This document shows positions 8,697 to 51,512 of a stretch of DNA of 64,000 bases, one piece after another (within the stretch, counting starts at the first letter, position 1; each line of letters opens with the position of its first letter). The notes under the pieces were generated by a model. It ran no database searches, was not told the DNA's origin, and saw nothing but the letters and a program-made list of their open reading frames with translations. Position numbers and translations under genes: made by a program. The DNA comes from a virus, in IMG/VR virus record IMGVR_UViG_3300037091_000121, positions 3,203 to 67,202 of that record. One strand, given 5' to 3'.

Positions 8697-10069
8697 TCAC
8701 AACGAGCCCGCGACCCCAGTTGGGTGGGTAATCCCATGGCTTTCCCTGTAGCTACCCGTCAAAACCAAGTTGCCGGTCGCAAGGCCATCGGTTTCCCGCT
8801 GAAGAGAGATAGGCCGACGATTGAACCAGAGAACAGCAGTCTCTTTCTTATCGGCCATAAGGAACCAGCGACCATCGTTGGTCATATGGGTCATTACGAT
8901 AACCTGAAGATCGAGAGCGCGAATGGTGTTGGGGTCGTTGTCAGCAGTGAAGGGCCTCTGAATCGAGTTCACGATCCGCTGGGCATTGAACCGATCGTCG
9001 GTGCCCACCACGAGCCTGACAGGCTGAATGGCGAGCTTCCGGCCTCTCTGGTCAACCATACCCGAAGACCACTGGTTGAGGAGCGCCTCAAGGCTCTCAA
9101 TGGACAGGTCGGCACCGCTCGAAAGCTGGTTCGACCACGTTCCACCGTCAGCCCGGAAGTGGACCTGGGAGAGCAGGGGATAACCCGTCCCGTTAGCCGT
9201 ATACTGGACAGCCGTGCCGGCGTTGTTGAAGAGGTCCATAGCGTTGACCTCCTGCGTGTAAGCAGCCGCACGAGCAAGCTCTCGACCGAACTCCGGGAAC
9301 ACTCCGTAAAGTTCGTCCTCCATCGCCTCCATAGTGATACGGCACTGGAGAGCATACGTATTGTGGACATACGTGCGCTTCCACGCTTCAGCACCACTAT
9401 CCTGGGCCGCAGGCGCGCCCTGGGCCTTCAGGAAAAACTGGCCAAGACCAGCCATTACCGTCTCGTTCTCCTGGCCCTTAACGGACCCGTCGATACGGTA
9501 AATCTGCTGGAACTGCTTGACAGCCTCGAGCCCAAACCTTCGATCCCCTCGGCTCTTTATCCGAGGGCTACGAGTTTCCTCGCAGATGGGACTATCTCTT
9601 CACCTCATAGAGGTGCGGGGCACTCGTGGAGCTTTCGGCGTTTCTCGTCTACTTGCTCTAGTCTCTGAACCTTCCGAGAATTCCTTCTCGGCTTGGCTGC
9701 GGATTACCATGCCTTTCGGTTTAGGCTTCCCGCAATTCACCCCGTCTTCACTACCGCATCGCTACGGCAGGGAGCAGCTTTAATCCTACTCGTTAAAATA
9801 AACGTGCTCGCCCTTTACAAGGGTTTGGACTATCTCATCACCCGCTATGGGGTGCCGGACGCTCTAGCCTGTATTCAGGTAGTCTCTGAACCTTCCGCAA
9901 TTTATGCGGCTTGGCTGCGGATTGGGATTTCTCCGTTCCCGCAATTCATCCGGTTATCACTCCGGCCTCACGACCGAAGGGCGCCACTTTCAGGGCTACG
10001 CAGCCCTCTTTCGAGCTGATCCGCAACGTTTGCGGTTGTCATCACGCCTGAGGGAATAATCCCAGGCAT
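8697..10069 (-). CDS. Major capsid protein (gpT-like, HK97 fold), three exons: 10069-9998, 9806-9788, 9532-8697; 308 aa after splicing
   Basis: The spliced frame is open (927 nt): MPGIIPSGVMTTANVADQLERGLR|HVYFNEW|LEAVKQFQQIYRIDGS...MAGLGQF...YALQCRITMEAMEDELY. GAGG RBS before 10069. Confidence 0.85.
9533..9787 (-). ncRNA. Group I intron 2 in the capsid gene (255 nt, ORF-less)
   Basis: Core elements GAAUUGCGGGAA, AAUCCGCAGC, GUUCAGAGACUA, GAGAUAGUCC. 5' exon ends in U and intron ends in G. IGS AGCU-GCUC pairs with exon ends GAGU and GGCU. Confidence 0.88.
9807..9997 (-). ncRNA. Group I intron 1 in the capsid gene (191 nt, ORF-less)
   Basis: Same P/Q/R/S core. IGS GUG-GCGC pairs with 5' exon GCGU and 3' exon CAC; terminal G at 9807. 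Confidence 0.88.
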
Positions 10070-27025: not shown

Positions 27026-28732
27026 ATGACACCAAAGAGATACACGGATGCAGAACTTCTCGGGCTTCTTGAACTGGTGAACGAAGACCATTACTCCTGG
27101 TTCTCGCCAATGGCTGTAAACCTAATCAATGAGCTTATCCAGTTGCGTAAGGAGATTAATGACCTTAAGGACCCGTTCGTGGAGGAATCGGAGTGAGTGA
27201 CAAGCTATCAACTCACTGGGTCTGTGGATGCGATGACACAGACAATTGCCACTGTCATAACTGCCTGATGGAGAAGATCGATGAGTCGGTGGTTCATCGT
27301 GATGACTACGAGAACGTATACATAGAACAGGGGATTTATCTTAGTAATTCCAAGGGAGAGATAGGTCTATTGAAAGATAGACTAATAACGTTAGAGAGAA
27401 CAATCGTTCTCCTTGAAGAGTGGATTAGCTCGATTCCGGATCACGTGGGGTTCTGCAAGCCGTTGGGATTGAGGAAGAAGGAGTGAGTGATGGATTACTG
27501 CTTTCACGGGTGTGTCTCCCACCTCTGCCGCAAGTGCGTGGAGGATGAGCGAGACGTTGCAGCCAAGCAACGTGATGAAGCCGTGTCTCATCGTGACGAC
27601 TACGAGACTCTCTACATAGAGAAGTGTATCGAGTTGAGGAAGTCCAGAGAAGAGGTTGAACGGTTGAAGGATAGATTATCGGAAGAGGAACTGGGAAGAA
27701 GGAGTGGATGATGGAGAACCGGATGGATATAGAACTTGATCTGGGCGGTGTGATTTCGTTCGGATCTGCCGGGGTGGATAGAAAGTTCATCCATTTTGAG
27801 ATAGGAGTGGATGAACCGTGGGGATACAGTCACCGACTCTGGCTTACATCCGAGGATCTAGAGAAGATTATCGAACTAGCTAATTCGACCAAGCAGGAGA
27901 TGTAGAGATATAGAGAAGGAGTTTGGGTTTTTGAACTATGAAGGAGAAGGAATGAAAGACGCTCTATCTAGATACAAGGAGCAGGCCCATCTGGTCGAGG
28001 CTCTGGAGCACCAGCGCCCTTTGCTGTCGGGAGATAGTGATAGGTCGAAGCTGGCTGCTAGATGGATACAGCATGCCATAGAGCGAGCTAATGAGAAGAT
28101 GGCTGAAGCACGAGTGGAATGTGAAGGATTGGGGGTCGATTGGCACGACTCTTGCAAGTAGGTAGGGTATGACAACCAAAAATCAAGTATCAGAACTGTT
28201 GGAAAGAGTGTCGGATTTGGAGAGGATCGTCACCCTCCTCGAAGAGTGGATTGACGCGCTTCCAGCTCACACAGGATTCTATAAGCCAGAGGGATTGTGG
28301 AAGAAGAATGAGTGACCTATGCTGCTGTAAGATGTGCTTGGATCACGTAACGGCTCAAGTGGAGTTCCTTGCTGCACAGAAGTTCTATGATGAGATGGTT
28401 CAGAAAAGATATAGAATGAGAAGCTTGGGTTACCATTGGTGTCGATATACCTGTGGGTGGGCTTCCGATGAAGTGGAGCGGCTGGCATCCACGCAATCTG
28501 AAACGAAATATAAAAGGAGTTCAGTATGGATGAAGTATTACAGAGTAGCGAGAAAGTTATGGGAAACTCCCAGATAACCGAATGGATCAGATTCTGCTTG
28601 TCCCAGTATCTGTCTGAAGGACAGCTAACCGCCGGAGAATTAGACAATCAGCTTGTCCTTCGCGTGTTTATTACTGTTAACAAGAAGAGTGTTCCCGAGC
28701 TATATATCATTAAGGTTAACAAGCAAGGGTGA
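27026..28732 (+). other. Cluster of small hypothetical ORFs with internally duplicated modules
   Basis: Overlapping short ORFs with AGGAG RBSs; HRDDYE..YIE and LER...LLEEWI...P.H each occur twice. Confidence 0.55.
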
Positions 28733-34900: not shown

Positions 34901-34985
34901 TTGCTCAACCCTGTCCTTCCATACCCTGCCCGACCGGGCCACACCAGACCTAGCCATTCCCCGCCCCGCCCAGCCATTCCGTACC
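34880..34985 (-). ncRNA. Family-1 pentamer guide-like RNA A (13 GGH-NN units + 16-bp hairpin)
   Basis: GGTac GGAat GGCtg GGCgg GGCgg GGAat GGCta GGTct GGTgt GGCcc GGTcg GGCag GGTat. Own promoter 35023-34995; hairpin 34918-34880. Confidence 0.85.
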
Positions 34986-35019
34986 CAACACTATAGTATA
35001 CCTAGATGAGGGTTGGTTG

Positions 35020-35667
35020 TCAATCCCTCAAAATCTCACAACTGCAAACCTGAAACCGTCCATAGCTAGGGCGAAAATCACCCACTCCGACCAGCTTTCC
35101 CGCTTGTGTAAGCACATCCCGAAGCACTTGCGGTTCGATATACTCTGGCGTCAACACAAGGAAGATGACTTTCGCCCTCCAACCTTTCTCAACCGCCGGC
35201 CGCTGCCGTGTGATGCCGTTACGCTGAACCACAACTCGGCGCTGATCGAGATAGCTCCAATCCGAGAGGGTTTTACCCGCCAGAGTGATAGGAGCCAGTT
35301 CGGTTTCCACAATCAGACCTGCTTTGAAGAGATCCATTGCGCTCTTTCTTGGTGAGCGAGGGTCTTGCCGAAACTTGGCTGCCCAAACGCAAGCCATTCG
35401 CAAATACTCTCCCGGCAATGCAATCTCGCCTTTCTCCGTTCGGTATACGTAGCTGTTCACGTTGTCCGACTTCTTGGCATCGCTCCCCTTGGCTGCTTTT
35501 GACTTCTCCTCTACTGCCTCACAGTTCCACCGATGGAATAGAATGGGTGTCGTGCCCTCAACCTCCACCTCGCAGCGATAGGGAAACGCCAAAAGATCCT
35601 CTGCGCCGTTGGAAACCTCCTCCAGCGCTGGCATAACATTACGACCATTCAATTTTGTAGCTACCAT
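35020..35667 (-). CDS. RAMP/Cas7-fold-like RNA-binding protein 1 (Vipr-like), 215 aa
   Basis: VEGTTPILFH, IALPGEYLR and the Gly-rich C-terminal loop VGVGDFRPSYGRF parallel RAMP motifs. Start placed at ATG 35667 (AAAGGA RBS); the ORF-track extension is the repeat array. Confidence 0.75.
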   Translation of the reverse strand: MVATKLNGRNVMPALEEVSNGAEDLLAFPYRCEVEVEGTTPILFHRWNCEAVEEKSKAAKGSDAKKSDNVNSYVYRTEKGEIALPGEYLRMACVWAAKFRQDPRSPRKSAMDLFKAGLIVETELAPITLAGKTLSDWSYLDQRRVVVQRNGITRQRPAVEKGWRAKVIFLVLTPEYIEPQVLRDVLTQAGKLVGVGDFRPSYGRFQVCSCEILRD

Positions 35668-35691
35668 AATAGTTTTCCTTTCAAAAAACCC

Positions 35692-35826
35692 TAACCTTAC
35701 CAAACCCCACCGGACCGGGCCGAACCCTACCACTGCATGCCACGCCGCACCCTTCCGGACCATGCCGATCCTTGCCTCTCCGGGCCGCGCCTCGGCTCAC
35801 CGCACCGCTCCTCGCCACGCCACACC
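35692..35826 (-). ncRNA. Family-1 pentamer array B (27 GGH-NN units) in the leader of RAMP-like gene 1
   Basis: 25 of 27 pentamers begin GG; strict 5-nt phase. Confidence 0.85.
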
Positions 35827-35834
35827 TCTAGTGT

Positions 35835-35850
35835 TGCAAGAACAGTGCCA
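35835..35850 (-). promoter_or_regulatory. Sigma54-type (-24/-12) promoter for array B and RAMP-like gene 1
   Basis: TGGCAC-TGTTC-TTGCA, canonical spacing, 8 nt upstream of the first repeat. Confidence 0.65.
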
Positions 35851-35869
35851 ATCGACCATCTCCAGAACG

Positions 35870-35967
35870 AAAAAATAGGCCCATGGTTACACCATGGGCC
35901 TGACGGTAAAGAAGGAGTGTGTTGTGTTAAGCAAGTGGAGTATACCAGATCGAGGGTTGGTTGTCAA
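35870..35967 (-). ncRNA. Promoter-terminator-bounded ~60-nt sRNA with anti-SD core
   Basis: TTGACA-N17-TATACT (35967-35939), then CACTCCTTCTT, then hairpin AGGCCCATGG/CCATGGGCCT + U6. Confidence 0.55.
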
Positions 35968-36021
35968 CCCCTAAAAATAGGGCTTGCTTCGGCGATCTCA
36001 TCCCGGTATACTATGGTGTGA

Positions 36022-36131
36022 GGCAGGGCGTGGCGGGGACAGGCGGGGTGAGGCGCGGCCTGGTGCGACGAGGCGAGGAATGGCAAGGCATGGGTATCTC
36101 ACCCCAAGGAGAAACCCTTGGGGTGAGATAC
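36022..36131 (+). ncRNA. Family-1 pentamer guide-like RNA C (14 units + 16-bp hairpin)
   Basis: GGCag GGCgt GGCgg GGAca GGCgg GGTga GGCgc GGCct GGTgc GACga GGCga GGAat GGCaa GGCat; promoter TTGCTT-N17-TATACT at 35984-36012. Confidence 0.85.
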
Positions 36132-36154
36132 AATTATTAGGAAGGGGTCATAAA

Positions 36155-36694
36155 ATGGCTATAGATCAAAGGCATGTTGTAAACATAAACGGTAAACTTT
36201 ATCTCAAATACTCCGGTGTCCTTGAAGCGGCGACAGAGGCAGGATTGAAATCTTTGGAAGTTGAGATCATCCAGTTGCCTTGTGCAGATAATGGAAATAC
36301 AGCAGTTTGCAAAGCCATTGCTATTCTAGAGAAAGACGGGGTAGTAAGACGGTTCATAGAGATTGGAGATGCTTCTCCTCTCAACGCTTCTAAAATGGTT
36401 ATCAATGCCACAATCCGCCTTGCATCCACAAGAGCGAAAGGACGGGCGCTCCGAGATGCGGTTTGTCATGGCGAGGCTTTGAGCGATGAAATCCCAGAGT
36501 TAGAGCCAGCTCCACAGAACCGAGAGTGGACGCCGGCCAAAGAGGCAAGCCCTCTCGTTCGCGATCAGTTTTGCCAATGGGAGGGATGCGGGGTGGAACT
36601 CCCGCCGGCGGTAGTCACGTTCTCCAAAAGGAAGTATAACCTGAGTCTCTGCCGCGACCACCAGCTGGCAACGGATGCCAAGAAAGCACAATGA
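36155..36694 (+). CDS. Rad52/22-like single-strand annealing protein with C-terminal Zn-ribbon
   Basis: INGKLYLKY.G.L...GDASP.N....A.IRLASTRAKGRALRDA; start reassigned to ATG 36155. Confidence 0.65.
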   Translation: MAIDQRHVVNINGKLYLKYSGVLEAATEAGLKSLEVEIIQLPCADNGNTAVCKAIAILEKDGVVRRFIEIGDASPLNASKMVINATIRLASTRAKGRALRDAVCHGEALSDEIPELEPAPQNREWTPAKEASPLVRDQFCQWEGCGVELPPAVVTFSKRKYNLSLCRDHQLATDAKKAQ

Positions 36695-37224
36695 TGAACT
36701 GGCAAGAGAGATGTGATGCGAGGAAGCGAATAGAGACCACCTTGAGCGACGCGCTGCATTCTACTTACGCAAGAGATGCCGCCCCGCTGTGGCGAGAAAC
36801 GGCACGTCTTGCGATGGCAATGGCTGCCGAGTGCGAGGATCAGTTTCAGCAGAAGGTTGTCCTCACCATCCCTGGGGATGTGGCCAGAGACCTCTCTCCT
36901 AACCTGCGGCTGCACTGGAGAGAAAGAGCCAATAGAACCCATAGGTGGAGAGCGATGGCTCGACTAATATGGCAGTCTGAAGGAAGCGTCCGTTTTAAGC
37001 CGGGGGTTTCAATTCATATCACTGTAAGACGTGGAAGGCTGGTGGATCGAGATAATTGCATCTCGTCCTGCAAGGTCATATTAGACTCGCTGTGGGGTGA
37101 TGACGGGATGCTAGGTGCGGATGATGCAAGGTGGGTGAAGTCTATCGAGGTAATTCAGGAGACAGGTGGGAAATGGACAAAGCATCCGGAAGTCAAAGTC
37201 GAAGTGGCAGGGGAAGTCGAATAG
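36691..37224 (+). CDS. RusA-like Holliday junction resolvase
   Basis: LSPN...HW..R, DRDN....K..LDSL, DDARWV motifs. Confidence 0.65.
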   Translation: MMNWQERCDARKRIETTLSDALHSTYARDAAPLWRETARLAMAMAAECEDQFQQKVVLTIPGDVARDLSPNLRLHWRERANRTHRWRAMARLIWQSEGSVRFKPGVSIHITVRRGRLVDRDNCISSCKVILDSLWGDDGMLGADDARWVKSIEVIQETGGKWTKHPEVKVEVAGEVE

Positions 37225-37568
37225 CCCATCTGAGCAACGAGGATCTGATCGTTAAAGATGAGCCGGTTCGAATTCCTAGCCGGAAAGGTTACTCAAAGAC
37301 CAACCCTGGGCCAGTGTTCGTTTGGTTCTGCCGGAATAAGCACACGTCTAATATGCTTATCGAGGCATTGAAGCAAACTGCATATGGCGAGTGGAAATCA
37401 ACTCCCAGGCAGGCTAGATCTCACGGGAAATTCAGTGGATGCGCCTGGGTATTAAAGTCCTGGGGGCTGACAGAAGCTGAGTATAACGCCATGCAAAGGG
37501 TCGCTGTTAAGTTAGACCCTACTGCGTCGAATATGGTTTGGGATGAGGCGGGTCAGTGCTATGTTTAG
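37131..37568 (+). CDS. Hypothetical protein (true start probably near 37221)
   Basis: ORF track; contains KQTAYGEWKST, matched by guide D. Confidence 0.55.
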   Translation: MGEVYRGNSGDRWEMDKASGSQSRSGRGSRIAHLSNEDLIVKDEPVRIPSRKGYSKTNPGPVFVWFCRNKHTSNMLIEALKQTAYGEWKSTPRQARSHGKFSGCAWVLKSWGLTEAEYNAMQRVAVKLDPTASNMVWDEAGQCYV

Positions 37569-37605
37569 GGGATTGACAACCAAGGCTCATTCCGGTATAA
37601 TATGG

Positions 37606-37709
37606 TGCAAGTCCAGGCACGGCCAGGCTAGGCGGGGCGAGGATGGGCAAGGCATGGCACGGCAAGGTGAGGAGCAGCAGCTTGGATACCTAATATCCAG
37701 GCTGCTGCT
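37606..37709 (+). ncRNA. Family-1 pentamer guide-like RNA D (13 units + hairpin)
   Basis: TGCaa GTCca GGCac GGCca GGCta GGCgg GGCga GGAtg GGCaa GGCat GGCac GGCaa GGTga; promoter TTGACA-N17-TATAAT at 37573-37601; terminator hairpin + TTTT. Confidence 0.85.
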
Positions 37710-38325: not shown

Positions 38326-39141
38326 ATGAAGAGCAGCTTTTTGGCGTGGGCACCATTCCTATCGTCGTCTATTATGTCAGGGATTTGGTACTTCATCGGG
38401 TGGAAAGATGGGCGTAGTTTTGAGAGAAAGAAGTTTAACAAAAAGTTCGCTCCTTGGAGAGATGTGCCCCCTGATTCCAAACGCATAGATATGACAGATA
38501 AGGTGGGGGGCTATTGTGTTAAATGGTGGAAGCCTTCCAATCGCGGCTTCACAATTTTGGAATTACTCGTAGTAGTGGCAATCATAGCGATACTTATGGC
38601 CCTTCTTTTCCCGGCTTTCGCAGCAGCAAGGAGGCGAGTGCTGCAAACGTCGTGTGCTTCCAATCTTCGTCAGCTTGGTATGGCCATCTCGATGTATGCC
38701 CAGGACCACGACGGCTATCCGCCTATTGGTGGATACAATTACATTCCTCCAGCCCCTGCCCCGCAAGTATGGAACAGGTCGGACTGGGAAGACGGCCTGG
38801 TTGCGCTTGCTTACGTCAATAATTATAATCTATTTCGATGTCCTTCTGCCTCCAACAAGGATTACCGTTCAGCTTATGGAGTGAACCGATGGATTTTAGG
38901 ATGGGGGATCTCACAGTTATTAGACGCACCACCGTTCCCTAGCAATACTCTTTTGGCTACTGAAAAACAAGGTTCCGATTGGCCGGTTTGGTTACCTACC
39001 GAGCAGACAGGGAATCCTTACTACTTCCCCTTGGACCCCCGTCATAACAATCAACTCAACATTCTTTTCGTGGATGGACACGTAGGAAAGTCCATCATAG
39101 GGGAATTGATCGAGAGCAGCAACATCATTTGGAGATGGTGA
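38326..39141 (+). CDS. Prepilin-type N-terminal cleavage/methylation protein, DUF1559/H-X9-DG family (start uncertain)
   Basis: RGFTILELLVVVAIIAILMALLFPAF..AR....SCASNLRQLG.A..MYAQD, C-terminal RHNNQLNILFVDGHV. Confidence 0.9.
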   Translation: MKSSFLAWAPFLSSSIMSGIWYFIGWKDGRSFERKKFNKKFAPWRDVPPDSKRIDMTDKVGGYCVKWWKPSNRGFTILELLVVVAIIAILMALLFPAFAAARRRVLQTSCASNLRQLGMAISMYAQDHDGYPPIGGYNYIPPAPAPQVWNRSDWEDGLVALAYVNNYNLFRCPSASNKDYRSAYGVNRWILGWGISQLLDAPPFPSNTLLATEKQGSDWPVWLPTEQTGNPYYFPLDPRHNNQLNILFVDGHVGKSIIGELIESSNIIWRW

Positions 39142-39168
39142 TTGGCACGGTTCTTGTATATACTATGG

Positions 39169-39268
39169 TGCTAGTAGGGATGTTGCAATGCCGAGATGGG
39201 TGTTGCATGGCGGGTCTGGGAATAGCAAATCACAGTAGAAGGGTGGATGTGTAGGCATCTACCCTTCT
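39169..39268 (+). ncRNA. Family-2 guide-like RNA E (12 NNY-NN units + ATCACAG + hairpin)
   Basis: TGCta GTAgg GATgt TGCaa TGCcg AGAtg GGTgt TGCat GGCgg GTCtg GGAat AGCaa ATCACAG; upstream TGGCAC-N5-TTGT and TATACT. Confidence 0.8.
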
Positions 39269-47863: not shown

Positions 47864-49015
47864 TCAAGATGGAAACTGAAGCCCACCTGGCATTGACAGT
47901 CTGTTCAGCATAGCCTCTTGGGGGCGCCTAGTCTGGTTCCGAACGGAATTTTCACCACCTGGCTCATTGCCTCTTGCGCCGGCGCCTTGCATACCGGGAG
48001 GGCTCTGTGGAGAAGCCATCCCTGACGCGGTGTATCCAGGCAGGGGCATCGCAGGGGCATCACCAGCCCCGGCGCTAGATGGCTTGCGCTTCCTTTTCGG
48101 CTTATCTTTGCTCTTGGCCTTCAGCTTCGCCATGTCCAGGTGGTGAGCGATGATCTGATGGATAATGCTCATCGCGTGCATCATCGGATCGTGTTTCGGC
48201 TGGGGCTGTGCAGGGGCATCTCCTGCACCTGCCATACCCTGCCCCAGGTTCCACATACTTGTATCATGCGGGTTCATTCCACCACCAGCGCCAGGAGGGT
48301 TTAGAGAACCAGCCGTTCCGTTAGGAGAACCTGCTCCACCCTGCAAAGAGGCGAACGGATCGTATGGTTGCGGGATAGGGTTGGTGGAAGGGAAAGGGCT
48401 AGCGTTACCTGCACTGACCGCATCTGATGAGGATGTGCCGTCAGGAACCTCACCCCCACCCTTGTTCGCCTTGTTGTAAGCATACGCCTGCGCTACCCCA
48501 GACAGCGATTGGCCGAGATTGTTAGGAGGTGTAGCCCCTGGCCCACTCGCCATATTGTAAGCCTGCTGGTTCACTCCAGAAGCCTCTAGGAGCGCACTCC
48601 TCCGGGCCGCGATAGCGTCAGCCATGTGTTGTTCGCCGAGCGCCATTCTGTTCGACGCATCATTCTGCTGAAGATTAGCCATTTGGTCATTAGCACCACC
48701 AGTGGATACTCCACTGGGATTACCAAATGCGGAAAGCGAATTAACATTGGAACGCTCTGCTTGGCCTTGAATTCCTTGTGATTGTGCCAAAGAGTTTAAA
48801 TCTTGTTGGTTGCTCATTGGCGAGGAGGTGCCGTAGTTGTATAGCTGGTTGGCTATCGCTCTCTGCTGCTTTAGGGCTGCCTGCTGCGCCGCAGACATCT
48901 GCCCGCCGCCGCCTCCTAGAAGGCCCGCGAAACCAGACAGGGCAGCCCCTACGGGGCCTCCCGTGGCGAAACCAGCACCAGCACCCAAAATACCACCTAC
49001 TGGGCTTACAGGCAT
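47864..49015 (-). CDS. Putative ejection/pilot protein
   Basis: Gly-rich N-terminus GGILGAGAGFATGGPVGAAL..AGLLGG and Gln/Asn-rich body. Confidence 0.6.
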   Translation of the reverse strand: MPVSPVGGILGAGAGFATGGPVGAALSGFAGLLGGGGGQMSAAQQAALKQQRAIANQLYNYGTSSPMSNQQDLNSLAQSQGIQGQAERSNVNSLSAFGNPSGVSTGGANDQMANLQQNDASNRMALGEQHMADAIAARRSALLEASGVNQQAYNMASGPGATPPNNLGQSLSGVAQAYAYNKANKGGGEVPDGTSSSDAVSAGNASPFPSTNPIPQPYDPFASLQGGAGSPNGTAGSLNPPGAGGGMNPHDTSMWNLGQGMAGAGDAPAQPQPKHDPMMHAMSIIHQIIAHHLDMAKLKAKSKDKPKRKRKPSSAGAGDAPAMPLPGYTASGMASPQSPPGMQGAGARGNEPGGENSVRNQTRRPQEAMLNRLSMPGGLQFPS

Positions 49016-49079
49016 CTTGCGCCTCCTCCAAAACTAGAGGGGTTGACAATCAACCCCCACCCCGGTATACTCCATTGTT

Positions 49080-49173
49080 CTACAATCGATGCATGTCATG
49101 GCTCTGAAACGCCTTGCCGGTCCAGGAACGGCAAATCACAGCGGATGGGTTAGGGTTTTCCCTTTCCCATCCG
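49080..49173 (+). ncRNA. Family-2 guide-like RNA F
   Basis: Promoter 49043-49071; ATCga TGCat GTCat GGCtc TGAaa CGCct TGCcg GTCca GGAac GGCaa ATCACAG + CGGATGGG/CCCATCCG hairpin. Confidence 0.75.
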
Positions 49174-49872
49174 AACCTTCATCAATGCTGGAGACGACTC
49201 CGCCCGCTCTCTCTTGATGTTAAGTTCGAACGGCTTTGGCTCTGGTGCCTGCCTTGGCTCTGACCGAGGAGGCATATCATTCGATACCGTCGGTCGCTCT
49301 CTCCCTGCTTTGGCAGGATTGGCTTCAGGAGACTTCAAGGTCATAAACGGGTTCAGAGACCTTGGCTTCCCGATTGGCTTCAATGACTTCTCGTTAGGGA
49401 GGTAAGCCTTCGGGCCACCAGGGCCACCTCGCTTACGGGGCGATTCCGGGTTGTTGCTAGGGATCTTCGCTGACGGTTTTTTCCTTCTGGTGTAAACTCT
49501 TGGAGTTGTTTCTGGCGTTAGGGCTTGAACCCCTCCGGTCAATGGCACGGGCGGATCTCCTGACCCAAAAGACACAGGCTTGACCACTGGCTTTCGCCCT
49601 TTCGTTTGACCTAGAGGCTTGTTAAGCAAAGGGGCACTTACTTTTCCAAAACCACCCCTTGTAGGATGAAGACCTTTAGGACCGTTTGGCCCTGGCGGCT
49701 TCATGGCGGGCGCATCGCCAACCCCAGACATCCGACCAAGCACTGACTTCACCTCGGCAGGCTTGCCCTTGACTTTGACGGATAGCTTATTACTATCCTC
49801 TGGCTTCTTCTTGGTGGCTGGTCGCTTCGGGCTTCCGAAGTCTGTTGGTGCTGGCATAGTGGCCCTCCTCAT
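49150..49872 (-). CDS. Basic Lys/Pro-rich protein (start probably ATG ~49857)
   Basis: GAGGAGG RBS before MPAPTDFG; shares the GxGD[AP]P motif with the ejection proteins. Confidence 0.6.
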   Translation of the reverse strand: MRRATMPAPTDFGSPKRPATKKKPEDSNKLSVKVKGKPAEVKSVLGRMSGVGDAPAMKPPGPNGPKGLHPTRGGFGKVSAPLLNKPLGQTKGRKPVVKPVSFGSGDPPVPLTGGVQALTPETTPRVYTRRKKPSAKIPSNNPESPRKRGGPGGPKAYLPNEKSLKPIGKPRSLNPFMTLKSPEANPAKAGRERPTVSNDMPPRSEPRQAPEPKPFELNIKRERAESSPALMKVRMGKGKP

Positions 49873-50030
49873 ACATTATACTCCAAACTGGCACTTGACA
49901 CCAAGGGGCACCCCCGGTATACTCTCCCTGCCTGACAACCAAGGCATTGTCTGGATCTACAATGCAATGCCCGGTGAGGTTCTGCCCTTCAGAGCAGAGC
50001 AACTCAAATCACAGGAGGGCTTCAGCCCTC

Positions 50031-50077
50031 ATAATGCGGCAACTCGGTGGCAAGCCCGAGGGAGGACGCAGAGCCAA
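50031..50077 (+). ncRNA. Twister-like self-cleaving ribozyme 1
   Basis: UAA-UGCG-GC-AA-CUCGG-U-GGC-AA-GC-CCGAG-...-CGCA-GAGCC: P2 UGCG/CGCA, P4 CUCGG/CCGAG, pseudoknots GG/CC and GC/GC. Confidence 0.8.
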
Positions 50078-50156
50078 GAATCAGGCGTTCCTGGGCAGGT
50101 CACGTCGTTGATCGGCTCTGCAGGGCGCAGTCAATCACAGGTGGCCTTCGGGCCAC

Positions 50157-50203
50157 ATAATGCGGCTAACCAGTGGCAAGCCTGGTGGAAGACGCAGAGC
50201 CAA
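50157..50203 (+). ncRNA. Twister-like self-cleaving ribozyme 2
   Basis: Same core with compensatory P4 ACCAG/CUGGU. Confidence 0.8.
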
Positions 50204-50302
50204 AACCTTGTCTGGCCGGGTCCTGTTGGGTCTAGCGATGCGAGGCGAGTCAAATCACAGGAGGGATGGAAACATCCCTCAACTTCCTTCTAAGGAGACA
50301 AA

Positions 50303-50908
50303 ATGGCTGTAAAGAAGAACGACTCGGTAGCTATCCCCGAGTTCAAAACAACAAAGATGCTGGTTCCCATCGTTGGAGTTTCCCCTCTCTTGTGTAATCG
50401 AATTACACAAGAAGTGCTCGAAACTCTTTCTGGCGGAAAGAAAGAGGGCGAAAAGAAGTCAAAGGACAACCGGGGATGGAAGGAGATCGCAATGGATGGG
50501 GCGTATCGTCATCCCAAAACGGGGGCCTACGTATTCCCCTCTTCTGGGCTTATGAACGCTCTGGCATCGGCATCATACCGGATGGGTCTGACCAAGAGCG
50601 CGGTCGAAGTGTTCGCTAATGTCCAGATTGAAGATGAGTGGCTGGACATCCTTGGGCCAGCGCCTCGGGCTCGTCAGGACAGCGGCCGCAACCAGGGCAA
50701 GGGATTGGTCGCTGTGAACCGAGCGGAGTTCCCTTTGGGCTGGCATATCAATGTTCCTGTTCAATTCACTTCCGAGATGAGCGCCAAGAAGCTAGGGATG
50801 CTATTTGAAGCCGCCGGTTTCGGAGTTGGGATTGGATGCTGGAGGCCGGAGAAGAAAGGCCGCTGTGGACGGTTCGTTATTCAGCGCAGTGCTGGAAGCG
50901 ACCTGTGA
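50303..50908 (+). CDS. RAMP/Cas7-fold-like RNA-binding protein 2 (Vipr-like)
   Basis: IVGVSPLLCN, VFPSSGLMNAL, Gly-rich loop GFGVGIGCWRPEKKGRCGRF; TAAGGAG RBS. Confidence 0.75.
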   Translation: MAVKKNDSVAIPEFKTTKMLVPIVGVSPLLCNRITQEVLETLSGGKKEGEKKSKDNRGWKEIAMDGAYRHPKTGAYVFPSSGLMNALASASYRMGLTKSAVEVFANVQIEDEWLDILGPAPRARQDSGRNQGKGLVAVNRAEFPLGWHINVPVQFTSEMSAKKLGMLFEAAGFGVGIGCWRPEKKGRCGRFVIQRSAGSDL

Positions 50909-51417
50909 TGACATACAGGGCGAAGAAGGGATCTGGAATTAGCCACAAGGTCGCCAATGTGGTAGCATTAGAGATGACTCGATTAGACCCGGAAGGGGAT
51001 GGCATCACGGCTCACGCCCTTCACATATCGCAAAAGCCTATTGACATGCCGCTTCACTCAGAGTTTGAGTGGAGGGACGATTTCGCAGGATCGCTTTATC
51101 GTGACAGTCAGGCCAGAGGACTTCTCCGATGTGTATTCCTGGTATCAGATGACGAGGAAGGCACTCCCGCTTATGAAGGCAGGGCTTTTCTGGCAATTAA
51201 GGCTGAAGCCACGGATGATGAAGACGGGGATGATGAGTGCGCAAAGGTCTACAAACCAGCGCTTCTGGTCCTGAAGGACGAGAACCTGTCAACCCAAGTC
51301 ATCGACGATGCTTTGCGTCAACTGAAAGGTTGGCGTGACCGATGGCATTCTTACTCGGAGGTGGCTACTAGGCTTCAGAAAGTCATCTCGGCCATTGATG
51401 AAGTATTTGAACAGTAG
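50908..51417 (+). CDS. Partner protein translationally coupled to RAMP-like gene 2
   Basis: TGATG overlap; motif PLHSEFEWRDDFAGSLYRDSQARGLLR. Confidence 0.7.
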   Translation: MTYRAKKGSGISHKVANVVALEMTRLDPEGDGITAHALHISQKPIDMPLHSEFEWRDDFAGSLYRDSQARGLLRCVFLVSDDEEGTPAYEGRAFLAIKAEATDDEDGDDECAKVYKPALLVLKDENLSTQVIDDALRQLKGWRDRWHSYSEVATRLQKVISAIDEVFEQ

Positions 51418-51430
51418 GTAGATTTAACAA

Positions 51431-51512
51431 GGCGTTTTAGGGCCGGCCCATTCCTTGTATGTCCAGGCAAGTCAAATCAAATCACAGAAGCCCGGAGGAT
51501 ACCTCCGGGCTT
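51431..51512 (+). ncRNA. Family-2 guide-like RNA G4
   Basis: GGCgt TTTag GGCcg GCCca TTCct TGTat GTCca GGCaa GTCaa ATCaa ATCACAG + AAGCCCGGAGG/CCTCCGGGCTT hairpin. Confidence 0.78.

What the first reader, a model, noticed from the sequence alone, without database searches (positions are those of the whole stretch)
49895..51512. Second, apparently orthogonal system: RAMP-like protein 2 + partner with degenerate NNY-NN guides tagged ATCACAG-hairpin
Seen: a promoter, three guide units, RAMP-like gene 50303-50908, a coupled partner gene 50908-51417 and a fourth unit. The fixed triplet is degenerate (GGC, TGC, GTC, AGC, ATC; mostly ending in Y), so a GGY search would miss these units. All end in the invariant ATC-AC-AG plus a hairpin, which family 1 lacks. 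Inference: a distinct subtype in which the 3' handle gives specificity, perhaps read by the partner protein, so one phage carries two non-cross-reacting systems.
Basis: partly seen in the sequence, partly recalled or inferred. Interest (0 to 1): 0.9.

Follow-up and report, generated by a model that had tools for sequence, protein, structure and literature searches.

The report
Second VIPR guide-RNA system in phage
This stretch of a peat-metagenome phage is a complete second copy of the recently described VIPR RNA-guided DNA-silencing system, using a looser repeat code, its own RNA tail and apparently self-cleaving ribozymes to cut its guide RNAs apart.

Summary
Window 49895-51512 holds a sigma70-type promoter, three tandem 5-nt-periodic RNAs, a 201-aa RAMP-fold gene, an overlapping 169-aa partner gene and a fourth RNA. 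All RNAs end in AATCACAG plus a hairpin.

It is not a new kind of system. It is a VIPR system (Viral Interference Programmable Repeat; three bioRxiv preprints of 2026): Vipr protein + vrRNAs + vap accessory gene. A profile of the 201-aa protein's family hits only the solved SUSP1 Vipr structure (E 7.8e-17).

The phage carries a canonical GGY/NN system at 34.9-37.7 kb and this second one, whose fixed triplet is D-(G>T)-Y. That matches the published 'YNNNG' alternative.

Added here:
- Vipr2 has Cys and Asn where SUSP1 Vipr reads the first G with Asp177 and His17.
- The three to four other Cys-type loci fetched also have single-G arrays.
- The two spacers between the tandem vrRNAs look like twister ribozymes, though below Rfam's threshold.
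- Two more family-2 vrRNAs lie at 39.2 and 49.1 kb.
- The partner is a widespread Vap found beside GGY systems too, so it is unlikely to read the handle.

Orthogonality is plausible but untested. No targets and no RNA data were found.

The parts
49895..49923 (+). sigma70-type promoter of the vrRNA-vipr2-vap operon
   Evidence: TTGACA-17-TATACT, 11 of 12. It is one of 10 exact TTGACA-N17-TATAMT sites in the window, against 0.02 expected.
49943..50032 (+). vrRNA 2c: 14 five-nt units (49943-50012), AG, tail hairpin 50015-50030. Predicted 3' end after U50032.
   Evidence: Register and unit list; hairpin; passes the K-Y run test.
50032..50075 (+). Twister-like ribozyme 1. Predicted cleavage between U50032 and A50033.
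   Evidence: Rfam Twister-P5 27.0 bits, E 7.5e-4, below the gathering score of 37.6. The core is identical to 4 viral contigs. One of them scores twister-P1 39.5 bits, E 9.6e-8.
50084..50158 (+). vrRNA 2d: 11 units (50084-50138), AG, hairpin 50141-50156. Predicted 3' end after U50158.
   Evidence: part of the 126-nt tandem duplication. It does not pass the strict run test.
50158..50201 (+). Twister-like ribozyme 2. Predicted cleavage between U50158 and A50159.
   Evidence: Rfam Twister-P5 23.2 bits, E 7.2e-3. Its P4 stem differs from copy 1 by compensatory changes.
50209..50280 (+). vrRNA 2e: 10 units (50209-50258), AG, hairpin 50261-50280.
50303..50908 (+). vipr2: Vipr-family minimal RAMP protein, 201 aa, with G-loop G-I-G-C-W-R-P.
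   Evidence: phrog_4652 E 5.6e-12. Family profile against PDB gives only SUSP1 Vipr 36pp_D, E 7.8e-17. AF2 pLDDT 95.7. Foldseek top hits are Csm3/Cmr4/type VII Cas7, E 3e-6.
50908..51417 (+). vap-like accessory gene, 169 aa, start overlapping the vipr2 stop (TGATG).
   Evidence: phrog_15946 E 2e-14. Homologue of Gordonia phage Ecliptus gp20, E 3e-15. Found beside vipr in 19 of 31 Vipr loci. AF2 pLDDT 86.1, with no PDB fold match.
51431..51512 (+). vrRNA 2f: 11 units (51431-51485), AG, 11-bp hairpin 51488-51512, at the 3' end of the operon.
   Evidence: (I8).
49043..49173 (+). Solo family-2 vrRNA 2b with its own promoter (49043-49071): units 49085-49139, AG, hairpin 49142-49173. Its hairpin overlaps, antisense, the 3' end of ORF 49150-49872.
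39143..39268 (+). Solo family-2 vrRNA 2a behind a sigma54-like promoter (39143-39158): units 39179-39233, AG, hairpin 39237-39268, then a T-run.
35020..35667 (-). vipr1 (context): the canonical Vipr paralogue, with G-loop G-V-G-D-F-R-P and a beta1 His.
   Evidence: 27% identical to vipr2, E 6e-5. phrog_4652 E 5.3e-16. Direct hit to SUSP1 Vipr, E 3.8e-4.
34906..37675 (.). Family-1 GGY/NN arrays (context): 34985-34906 (-), 35826-35687 (-), 36022-36096 (+), 37616-37675 (+).
   Evidence: Column counts over 71 units: G1 71, G2 67, Y3 57.

Best explanation
The region is a complete VIPR system, the second in this phage.

Operon layout. One transcript from the 49895 promoter carries, in order:
- vrRNA 2c
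- a twister-like ribozyme
- vrRNA 2d
- a second twister-like ribozyme
- vrRNA 2e
- vipr2
- vap
- vrRNA 2f

Two further family-2 vrRNAs have promoters of their own, at 49.1 kb and 39.2 kb.

Mechanism, inferred by homology with SUSP1 VIPR and not shown here:
- Vipr2 protomers polymerise along each vrRNA, one per five nucleotides.
- They sequester the fixed triplet and present the two variable bases.
- The variable bases read double-stranded DNA in an NN-x-NN-x register and silence transcription of a competing mobile element.

What is particular to this copy:
- The fixed triplet is D-(G>T)-Y instead of G-G-Y.
- Vipr2 carries Cys179 and Asn32 where SUSP1 Vipr uses Asp177 and His17 to read the first G. 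It keeps the residues that hold G2 and Y3 (Arg140, Trp180, Arg181). The looser code is therefore encoded in the protein.
- Every family-2 vrRNA ends in the constant units ..CAA-ATCAC-AG followed by a GC-rich hairpin of variable sequence. I read this as the 3' cap and possible loading mark, equivalent to the SUSP1 tail pseudoknot.
- The tandem vrRNAs are probably released by self-cleavage 2 nt after tail hairpins 1 and 2.

Shown: homology, fold, repeat statistics, tail, synteny.
Inferred: RNP formation, DNA targeting, ribozyme activity, and the separation of the two guide pools.

The confidence of 0.6 is for the whole statement, including the residue rule, the ribozymes and the tail as loading mark. 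That this is a VIPR system at all I hold at about 0.9.
For: Protein:
- A family profile (69 sequences) hits only SUSP1 Vipr in the PDB, E 7.8e-17 over residues 3-188 of 202.
- The AF2 model has pLDDT 95.7. Its best fold matches are Cas7-type RAMPs at E 3e-6.
- The family is large: 2,658 representatives at E<=1e-3.

RNA:
- Six units with a period-5 D-K-Y/NN tract, AATCACAG and a hairpin.
- K-Y runs number 13, against 2.2 in shuffles.

Published description of VIPR (sections read):
- 9-16 pentamer repeats.
- An invariant 3' tail.
- An adjacent vap gene.
- Alternative NNNGG, YNNNG and NNNNG repeats.
- Hammerhead-interspersed arrays.
- The contacts of G1, G2 and Y3 are given.

Code and residue:
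- The alignment places Vipr2 Cys179 at SUSP1 Asp177 and Vipr2 Asn32 at SUSP1 His17. Vipr1 has Asp and His.
- Cys-type loci L003, L004 and L006 have arrays with G at position 1 in 0.00-0.18 of units. L005 is weaker, at 0.18-0.50.
- Six Asp-type loci with clear arrays give 0.70-0.88.
- Among the 153 family representatives listed, the beta1 His occurs in 31 of 48 Asp/Glu-type proteins with a recognisable motif, against 2 of 43 Cys/Ala/Ser-type proteins.

Partner: homologous to the gene next to vipr in 19 of 31 loci.

Ribozyme:
- Two sub-threshold Rfam twister hits at equivalent places.
- The same core occurs in 4 viral contigs, one scoring E 9.6e-8 as twister-P1.
- 89% of 83 pair cells are paired in my structure, against 12-37% when partners are slid.
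Against: - No RNA data exist for this phage, so no vrRNA, processing site or RNP is shown.
- No target was found. The best self-matches equal those of shuffled guides. An 11-unit exact pattern of vrRNA 2c found nothing in the viral or genome contig collections.
- The repeat is degenerate. Only 3 of 6 units pass the strict run test, and position 2 is T in 20 of 68 units.
- The residue-code link rests on few loci. In 19 of 25 Asp-type loci my filter found no array or only weak short runs. The one Ala-type locus was inconclusive.
- Several Asp-type loci with clean GGY arrays have Asn, not His, at the beta1 position. The His is therefore not required.
- The twister hits score 27.0 and 23.2 bits against a gathering score of 37.6.
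- Stem P1 is absent in both window copies.
- P2 and both pseudoknots never vary in the 5 distinct sequences, so they carry no covariation support.
Confidence: 0.6

Rival explanations
1. One shared pool: both Vipr proteins load both RNA families, or Vipr2 loads both. On this reading the second system only adds guides and protein dosage, and is not an orthogonal channel.
For: GGY is a subset of D-G-Y, so nothing in the repeat code bars Vipr2 from family-1 RNAs. Family-1 tails are plain hairpins, as are the family-2 hairpins.
Against: Vipr1 keeps the Asp and His that read G1 in SUSP1. Family-2 RNAs have G at position 1 in only 31 of 68 units. All 6 family-2 RNAs, and none of the 4 family-1 arrays, carry AATCACAG. 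The two proteins belong to different clades, only one of which has the p2-type Vap.
Confidence: 0.3
2. The partner protein (50908-51417) reads the ATCACAG-hairpin handle and so sets specificity.
For: The gene is translationally coupled to vipr2. No p2-like gene lies near vipr1; the best tblastn hit in the window has E 0.45.
Against: p2 homologues accompany Asp-, Glu-, Ala- and Cys-type Viprs with other tails in 19 of 31 loci. One example is Gordonia phage Ecliptus, with a GGY array. The published vap genes of several types are predicted DNA binders. The p2 model matches no known RNA-binding fold.
Confidence: 0.08
3. Some family-2 units, above all the two solo ones at 39.2 and 49.1 kb, are decoy or hijacking vrRNAs aimed at a competitor's Vipr. 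Satellite-borne solo vrRNAs do this against SUSP1.
For: Solo vrRNAs that redirect another element's VIPR are described in the passages read. Units 2a and 2b have their own promoters, away from vipr2.
Against: They share the exact tail of the operon's own vrRNAs, and a cognate Vipr is encoded in the same genome. The simpler reading is that they are extra guides for Vipr2.
Confidence: 0.07
4. The units are ordinary leader, terminator or attenuator structures, and the 5-nt periodicity is chance or compositional.
For: The motif count alone is weak, with 5 of 100 shuffles reaching 6. Three of the six units fail the strict run test. Hairpins followed by CTGTGATTTG look terminator-like on the minus strand.
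Against: All six motifs lie on one strand, each directly before a hairpin and directly after a period-5 tract. They flank a Vipr gene. Independent Cys-type Vipr loci carry the same kind of single-G arrays.
Confidence: 0.03

Closest known systems
Type II VIPR of Escherichia phage SUSP1 and the P. fulva prophage (bioRxiv 10.64898/2026.04.26.720920 and .720927; Results sections read)
   Same: - A minimal RAMP protein of about 200 aa with a G-loop and thumb.
- vrRNAs of 9-16 pentamer repeats with a constant 3' tail.
- vrRNAs both upstream and downstream of a vipr-vap gene pair.
- Phage-encoded.
- Sequence homology, E 7.8e-17 by profile.
   Different: - The fixed triplet is D-(G>T)-Y, not GGY.
- The G1-reading Asp and His are replaced by Cys and Asn.
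- The tail is a short constant single strand plus a simple hairpin, not a 40-nt pseudoknot.
- Tandem vrRNAs are separated by ribozyme-like elements.
- Whether the partner belongs to the vap1 family could not be checked, because no vap1 sequence was available.
Non-canonical VIPR repeat codes: YNNNG, NNNGG and NNNNG (Methods of 10.64898/2026.04.26.720920); WGT/NN, TGH/NN, GAC/NN (10.64898/2026.10.21.760802, passages)
   Same: A pentamer code with one degenerate position in the fixed triplet, next to a Vipr-like fold. In the YNNGG register, family 2 reads Y-N-N-N-G.
   Different: Those papers give motif classes. In the text I could read, they give no residue-level reason, no coexistence with a canonical system in one genome, and no ATCACAG tail. 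The supplements (fig. S17, data S4) were closed and may cover this clade.
Hammerhead ribozyme-vrRNA arrays of type I and V VIPR (fig. S19 legend)
   Same: Self-cleaving ribozymes placed between adjacent vrRNAs of an array.
   Different: Here the element is twister-like, not hammerhead. 'Twister' occurs 0 times in the main text of the two papers searched for it. Activity was not tested.
Cas7-family backbone subunits of class 1 CRISPR effectors (Csm3, Cmr4, type VII Cas7, Cas7-11)
   Same: RRM core, glycine-rich loop and thumb. Foldseek E 3e-6 to 1e-4, TM 0.44-0.61. One subunit binds per fixed number of guide nucleotides.
   Different: - 5-nt rather than 6-nt periodicity.
- Sequence-specific reading of a fixed triplet in each unit.
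- No CRISPR array and no other cas genes in the window.
Twister ribozyme (Rfam clan CL00120)
   Same: As aligned by Rfam:
- U^AA cleavage site.
- 4-bp P2.
- P4 with the CAAGCC-type loop.
- Both pseudoknots can form. One has GGC:GCC where the Rfam consensus has CCC:GGG.
   Different: - Scores lie below the gathering thresholds.
- There is no P1 stem. The vrRNA tail hairpin abuts the cleavage site instead.

Membership tests
VIPR system | Vipr protein: a minimal RAMP (RRM core, G-loop, thumb) homologous to described Viprs | tested here: met
   Family profile against PDB: the only hit is SUSP1 Vipr, E 7.8e-17. AF2 pLDDT 95.7. Cas7-like fold. G-x-G-x-W-R-P loop.
VIPR system | vrRNAs of tandem pentamers with a fixed triplet alternating with variable NN, about 9-16 units | tested here: met
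   Six tracts of 10-14 units. Position 2 is G or T in 64 of 68 units, and position 3 is Y in 62 of 68; positions 4-5 are mixed. The triplet is degenerate at position 1, as in the published YNNNG class.
VIPR system | An invariant 3' tail after the repeat tract | tested here: met
   AATCACAG plus a hairpin in 6 of 6 units. The hairpin sequence varies; the single-stranded part is constant.
VIPR system | An adjacent accessory (vap) gene | tested here: met
   p2 overlaps the vipr2 stop. Homologues lie beside vipr in 19 of 31 loci. Which of vap1-6 it is could not be tested.
VIPR system | vrRNAs expressed and bound by Vipr as a helical RNP | not testable with these tools
   No RNA run holds the stretch.
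VIPR system | Guides match natural DNA targets under the NN-x (1-nt skip) rule | tested here: inconclusive
   No self-target above shuffled guides, as published for other VIPRs. 0 exact matches for one 11-unit pattern in the viral and genome contig collections. No mismatch-tolerant search of a collection was possible.
Twister ribozyme | Reaches Rfam's gathering score | tested here: not met
   27.0 and 23.2 bits against 37.6 for Twister-P5. The relative in L035 scores 39.5 against 67.2 for twister-P1.
Twister ribozyme | Core: U-A cleavage site, P2, P4 and two pseudoknots | tested here: met
   All are present in both copies. P2, T1, T2 and P4 are 100% paired in 5 distinct sequences, and one P4 pair changes on both sides. 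The invariant pairs give no covariation evidence.
Twister ribozyme | Stem P1 closing the cleavage-site loop | tested here: not met
   P1 pairs in L033, L034 and L035, but not in the two window copies or (beyond 2 bp) in L036. In those, a hairpin lies just 5' of the site.
Twister ribozyme | Self-cleavage | not testable with these tools
   This needs an in vitro transcription and cleavage assay.
CRISPR-Cas class 1 effector | A CRISPR repeat-spacer array and further cas genes | tested here: not met
   No family of RNA other than two group I introns reaches Rfam's threshold. The repeats are 5-nt units. No cas domain appears in Pfam for the neighbouring genes.

The most novel reading that the evidence does not exclude
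The phage runs two truly separate guide channels.

The residue after G-x-G in the Vipr G-loop would decide whether the first base of each pentamer is read:
- Asp or Glu reads G.
- Cys, and perhaps Ala or Ser, does not.

The short constant ATCACAG-hairpin tail would restrict loading to Vipr2.

This would give a simple predictive rule for repeat codes across the 2,658-member family. It would also give a natural pair of non-interfering programmable DNA binders, whose tandem guides are released by twister self-cleavage.
Probability: 0.35. Interest if true: 0.65.

Novelty: new member of a known kind. Interest (0 to 1): 0.45.

Why it matters
VIPR was described only in 2026 and is proposed as the viral ancestor of CRISPR RAMP effectors and as a new programmable DNA-binding tool.

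A single phage carrying a canonical GGY system and a relaxed D-G-Y system side by side is a natural experiment. It bears on three questions:
- How the protein reads its repeat.
- Whether tails keep guide pools apart.
- How arrays are processed.

The Asp-to-Cys change at the G1-reading position, and its match with single-G arrays in other loci, gives a directly testable rule.

If the spacers are active twisters, ribozyme-processed vrRNA arrays are not limited to hammerheads.

None of this changes the picture of what VIPR is. It is a well-furnished new example.

Tried and rejected

Close relatives of Vipr2:
- None were fetched by single-protein scans of viral and metagenome contigs.
- None were fetched by the 4-sequence alignment in genome and viral contigs.
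- Only 4 distant Cys-type metagenome loci came back.
- Conservation of the ATCACAG tail in close kin therefore could not be tested. The three closest proteins (52-64% identity) sit on contigs I could not fetch.

Alignment A2 was too diverse for a collection scan.

The Ala-type scan gave one locus with no convincing array.

Targets:
- No self or cross targets within the phage under skip rules 0-2. The skip-3 hits are the guides themselves.
- 0 exact hits for one guide in two collections.
- Other guides were not scanned, because 8-9 variable units give too few specified bases.

Partner protein:
- No Pfam family.
- Only unnamed viral clusters in the Atlas.
- No PDB fold match, best E 0.059.
- The Vipr2-Vap complex prediction gave no verdict. 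It is not evidence either way.

Mycobacterium phage Gorge gp54 first looked like a Vipr-Vap fusion. Its middle part translates as low-complexity Arg/Pro text. I therefore treat it as a likely annotation run-through and make no claim.

Sequencing runs:
- No RNA holder is listed; there are 8 DNA runs from peat metagenomes in 5 studies.
- Contigs of four runs were laid. The operon is nearly invariant: one contig is identical over 49000-51470, and another has two changes, at 50118 and 50121. There is no guide hypervariability to read.

I considered and dropped these readings:
- TRAP-like or CsrA-like protein-titrating RNAs, G-quadruplex tracts, and promoters at ATCACA-16-CATAAT. I dropped them once the VIPR homology and the ribozyme core were seen.
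- Four further K-Y runs (43051, 32389, 34865, 34594) were not followed up. About two such runs are expected by chance.

Supplements of all papers were closed. Fig. S17, fig. S19, data S4 and table S3 of the discovery paper may already list this clade, two-system loci or twister arrays.
Full report
WHAT IS THERE

The window is 64,000 of the 67,202 bases of a single virus contig.

At 49895-49923 lies a near-consensus sigma70 promoter. It is one of ten exact TTGACA-N17-TATAMT sites in the window, against 0.02 expected.

The 370-nt leader that follows has no credible ORF. It holds three units that each end in AATCACAG followed at once by a GC-rich hairpin.

Two genes follow:
- A 201-aa gene at 50303-50908.
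- A 169-aa gene at 50908-51417, whose ATG overlaps the first gene's TGA.

A fourth unit then ends in an 11-bp hairpin at 51488-51512.

Units 2 and 3 are a 126-nt tandem duplication, 82% identical over 71 nt, with compensatory changes in both stems.

THE PERIODICITY

Read back from the constant motif, each unit is a tract of 10-14 pentamers. Over 68 pentamers in six units:
- Position 1 is G 31, T 21, A 14, C 2.
- Position 2 is G 44, T 20.
- Position 3 is C or T in 62.
- Positions 4 and 5 are mixed.

Runs of at least 9 of 10 pentamers with K-Y number 13 in the window, against 2.2 in 100 dinucleotide shuffles with a maximum of 6. Only three of the six units reach that strict bar. Six runs lie on the other array family, and four are unexplained.

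The motif count alone is weak, since 5 of 100 shuffles reach six. But all six copies in the whole genome lie on the + strand, each between a periodic tract and a hairpin.

Two of the six lie outside the finding:
- One sits behind its own sigma70 promoter at 49043-49173.
- One sits behind a sigma54-like TGGCAC-N5-TTGTA site at 39143-39268.

THE OTHER FAMILY

The 201-aa protein has a paralogue at 35020-35667 on the minus strand, 27% identical, E 6e-5.

Around that paralogue lie four arrays of 12-28 GGNNN units. Over their 71 units, G1 is 71, G2 is 67 and Y3 is 57. Each array starts just after a promoter, and three are followed by a hairpin.

It lacks ATCACAG, but it does not lack hairpins.

WHAT IT IS

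A search of PDB sequences gave 'SUSP1 Vipr protein' (36pp_D). The match is weak for the 201-aa protein alone (E 0.74) and clearer for the paralogue (E 3.8e-4).

That name led to three bioRxiv preprints of 2026. I read the Results and two Methods sections of the discovery paper, one Results section and passages of the cryo-EM paper, and passages of the satellite paper.

They describe VIPR as follows:
- A phage-borne minimal RAMP protein (Vipr) polymerises, one protomer per 5 nt, on vrRNAs made of 9-16 GGY/NN units plus an invariant 3' tail.
- The NN bases read dsDNA with one skipped base per unit and silence transcription.
- A vap accessory gene lies alongside.
- Seven types exist.
- Alternative repeats NNNGG, YNNNG and NNNNG exist.
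- Some arrays are interspersed with hammerhead ribozymes.

A fourth preprint reports further degenerate motifs such as WGT/NN next to Vipr-like folds (passages).

MEMBERSHIP

- The family of the 201-aa protein has 2,658 representatives at E<=1e-3.
- A 69-sequence profile hits only SUSP1 Vipr in the PDB, E 7.8e-17 over residues 3-188.
- The AF2 model is confident, pLDDT 95.7.
- Its best structural matches are Csm3, Cmr4 and type VII Cas7 subunits, E 3e-6, TM 0.44-0.61. The fold library ends in April 2026 and holds no VIPR entry.

'RAMP-like' is therefore right, and the system is VIPR. In the published YNNGG register, family 2 reads Y-N-N-N-G, one of the alternatives already named.

WHY THE TRIPLET IS LOOSER

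In SUSP1 Vipr:
- G1 is read by His17 and Asp177.
- G2 is held by Arg138 and Trp178.
- Y3 is held by Arg179 and neighbouring residues.

The alignment puts Vipr2 Asn32 and Cys179 at the two G1 positions. Arg140, Trp180 and Arg181 are kept. Vipr1 has His and Asp. All three close homologues of Vipr2 also have G-I-G-C-W-R-P-E.

Among the 153 family representatives listed, the residue after G-x-G is Glu 42, Asp 39, Ala 34, Cys 19, Ser 10 and other 8. The beta1 His is seen in 31 of 48 Asp/Glu proteins with a recognisable motif, against 2 of 43 Cys/Ala/Ser proteins.

In fetched loci:
- Cys-type L003, L004 and L006 have arrays with G at position 1 in 0.00-0.18 of units. L005 is less clean, at 0.18-0.50.
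- Six Asp-type loci with clear arrays give 0.70-0.88.
- The Glu-type Gordonia phage Ecliptus has a GGY array between vipr and vap.

Against this:
- 19 of 25 Asp-type loci gave no array, or only weak short runs, by my filter.
- Several GGY loci have Asn at the beta1 position.
- The single Ala-type locus was inconclusive.

THE PARTNER

p2 matches phrog_15946. It is homologous to Ecliptus gp20 (E 3e-15) and to the C-terminal part of the annotated Gorge gp54 (E 9e-14).

By tblastn, p2-like genes lie just downstream of vipr in most of 19 of the 31 loci fetched through a Vipr match (upstream in L013), across Cys, Ala, Asp and Glu types. It is thus a general Vap, not a reader of this phage's handle.

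Its model (pLDDT 86.1) has no PDB match, so its action is unknown.

Vipr1's nearest relatives (L032, L006, L027, L029, L031) lack a p2-like neighbour within the DNA held for each locus. No p2-like gene lies near vipr1. The two systems therefore belong to different clades.

THE SPACERS

A permissive Rfam scan found Twister-P5 at 50010-50059 (27.0 bits) and 50136-50185 (23.2 bits). Both span the full model and both fall below the gathering score of 37.6.

I read the element differently from that alignment. After the tail hairpin comes, in order:
- U^AA
- A 4-nt P2 strand
- GC
- A P4 hairpin with loop UGGCAAGC
- A purine linker
- The other P2 strand
- GAGCC

This puts the ribozyme at 50032-50075 and 50158-50201.

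The loop GGC can pair with GCC, where the Rfam consensus has CCC and GGG.

An exact pattern of this core found four viral contigs. One of them, with a proper P1 stem, scores twister-P1 at 39.5 bits, E 9.6e-8, again below its gathering score of 67.2. Two of the contigs also carry hammerhead II ribozymes.

On five distinct sequences, 89% of 83 pair cells are paired, against 12-37% with slid partners. However, P2 and both pseudoknots never vary, and P1 is missing in the window copies.

I hold the ribozyme as probable, not shown. If active, it cuts 2 nt after tail hairpins 1 and 2 and stays on the 5' end of the next vrRNA.

TARGETS AND EXPRESSION

- No guide matches its own genome better than shuffled guides do. 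This agrees with the published absence of self-targeting.
- One 11-unit exact pattern found nothing in two collections.
- Only DNA runs from peat metagenomes hold the stretch.
- Their contigs show almost no variation in the operon.
- A DUF1559/N-methyl protein at 38326-39141 hints at a planctomycete host.

VERDICT

This is a distinct second system, but of a known kind. Its partner is a general accessory protein, and its independence from system 1 is unproven and, by the code alone, likely one-way.
- Confidence that this is a VIPR system is about 0.9. The value of 0.6 given for the best explanation reflects its added, untested parts: the residue rule, the twister, and the tail as loading mark.

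Noticed in passing
window 9568-10011 (-): Two adjacent group I intron matches above Rfam's threshold: 89.3 bits at 9568-9797 and 63.9 bits at 9809-10011. The host gene was not examined.
   Followed up: no
window 28141-28156 (+), 35835-35850 (-), 39143-39158 (+): Three exact TGGCAC-N5-TTGYA sites, against 0.04 expected. These are sigma54-type promoters in a phage. Two of them drive vrRNAs: the 28-unit family-1 array upstream of vipr1, and solo vrRNA 2a.
   Followed up: partly
window 35826-35687 (-): A 28-unit GGY/NN tract runs straight into the vipr1 ribosome site, without a tail hairpin. It is twice the published vrRNA length. It may be two guides or a staggered array.
   Followed up: no
L004 4780-5070: In a Cys-type VIPR locus from a metagenome, three of the four vrRNAs downstream of vipr are each followed by a tRNA-like minihelix, with an acceptor-like stem and a T-arm with a GGTTCRACTCC loop. 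ARAGORN calls no tRNA there. This may be a third way to process arrays, by RNase P or RNase Z.
   Followed up: partly
L033 2038-2732 and 10984-11068; L034 1221-1287: The viral contigs that share the twister-like core also carry hammerhead II ribozymes and a RAGATH-28 RNA above threshold. They are ribozyme-rich phage genomes.
   Followed up: no
L002 1682-2899 (Mycobacterium phage Gorge gp54): The annotated 405-aa ORF starts Vipr-like, ends Vap-like and is Arg/Pro-rich nonsense in the middle. The annotation probably runs through a frameshifted or array-bearing VIPR locus.
   Followed up: partly
window 38326-39141 (+): A protein with an N-terminal methylation motif and DUF1559. That family is typical of Planctomycetes by my recollection, which hints at the host.
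   Followed up: no
window 35967-35870 (-): A perfect TTGACA-N17-TATACT promoter is followed by a roughly 60-nt non-periodic RNA ending in a terminator hairpin with a T-run. This is an unexplained small RNA between the two family-1 arrays.
   Followed up: no
window 49198-49453: The minus-strand ORF 49150-49872, next to the operon, is the only strongly variable stretch among the peat samples. Up to 25 differences and 2 indels occur in one 248-nt contig.
   Followed up: no
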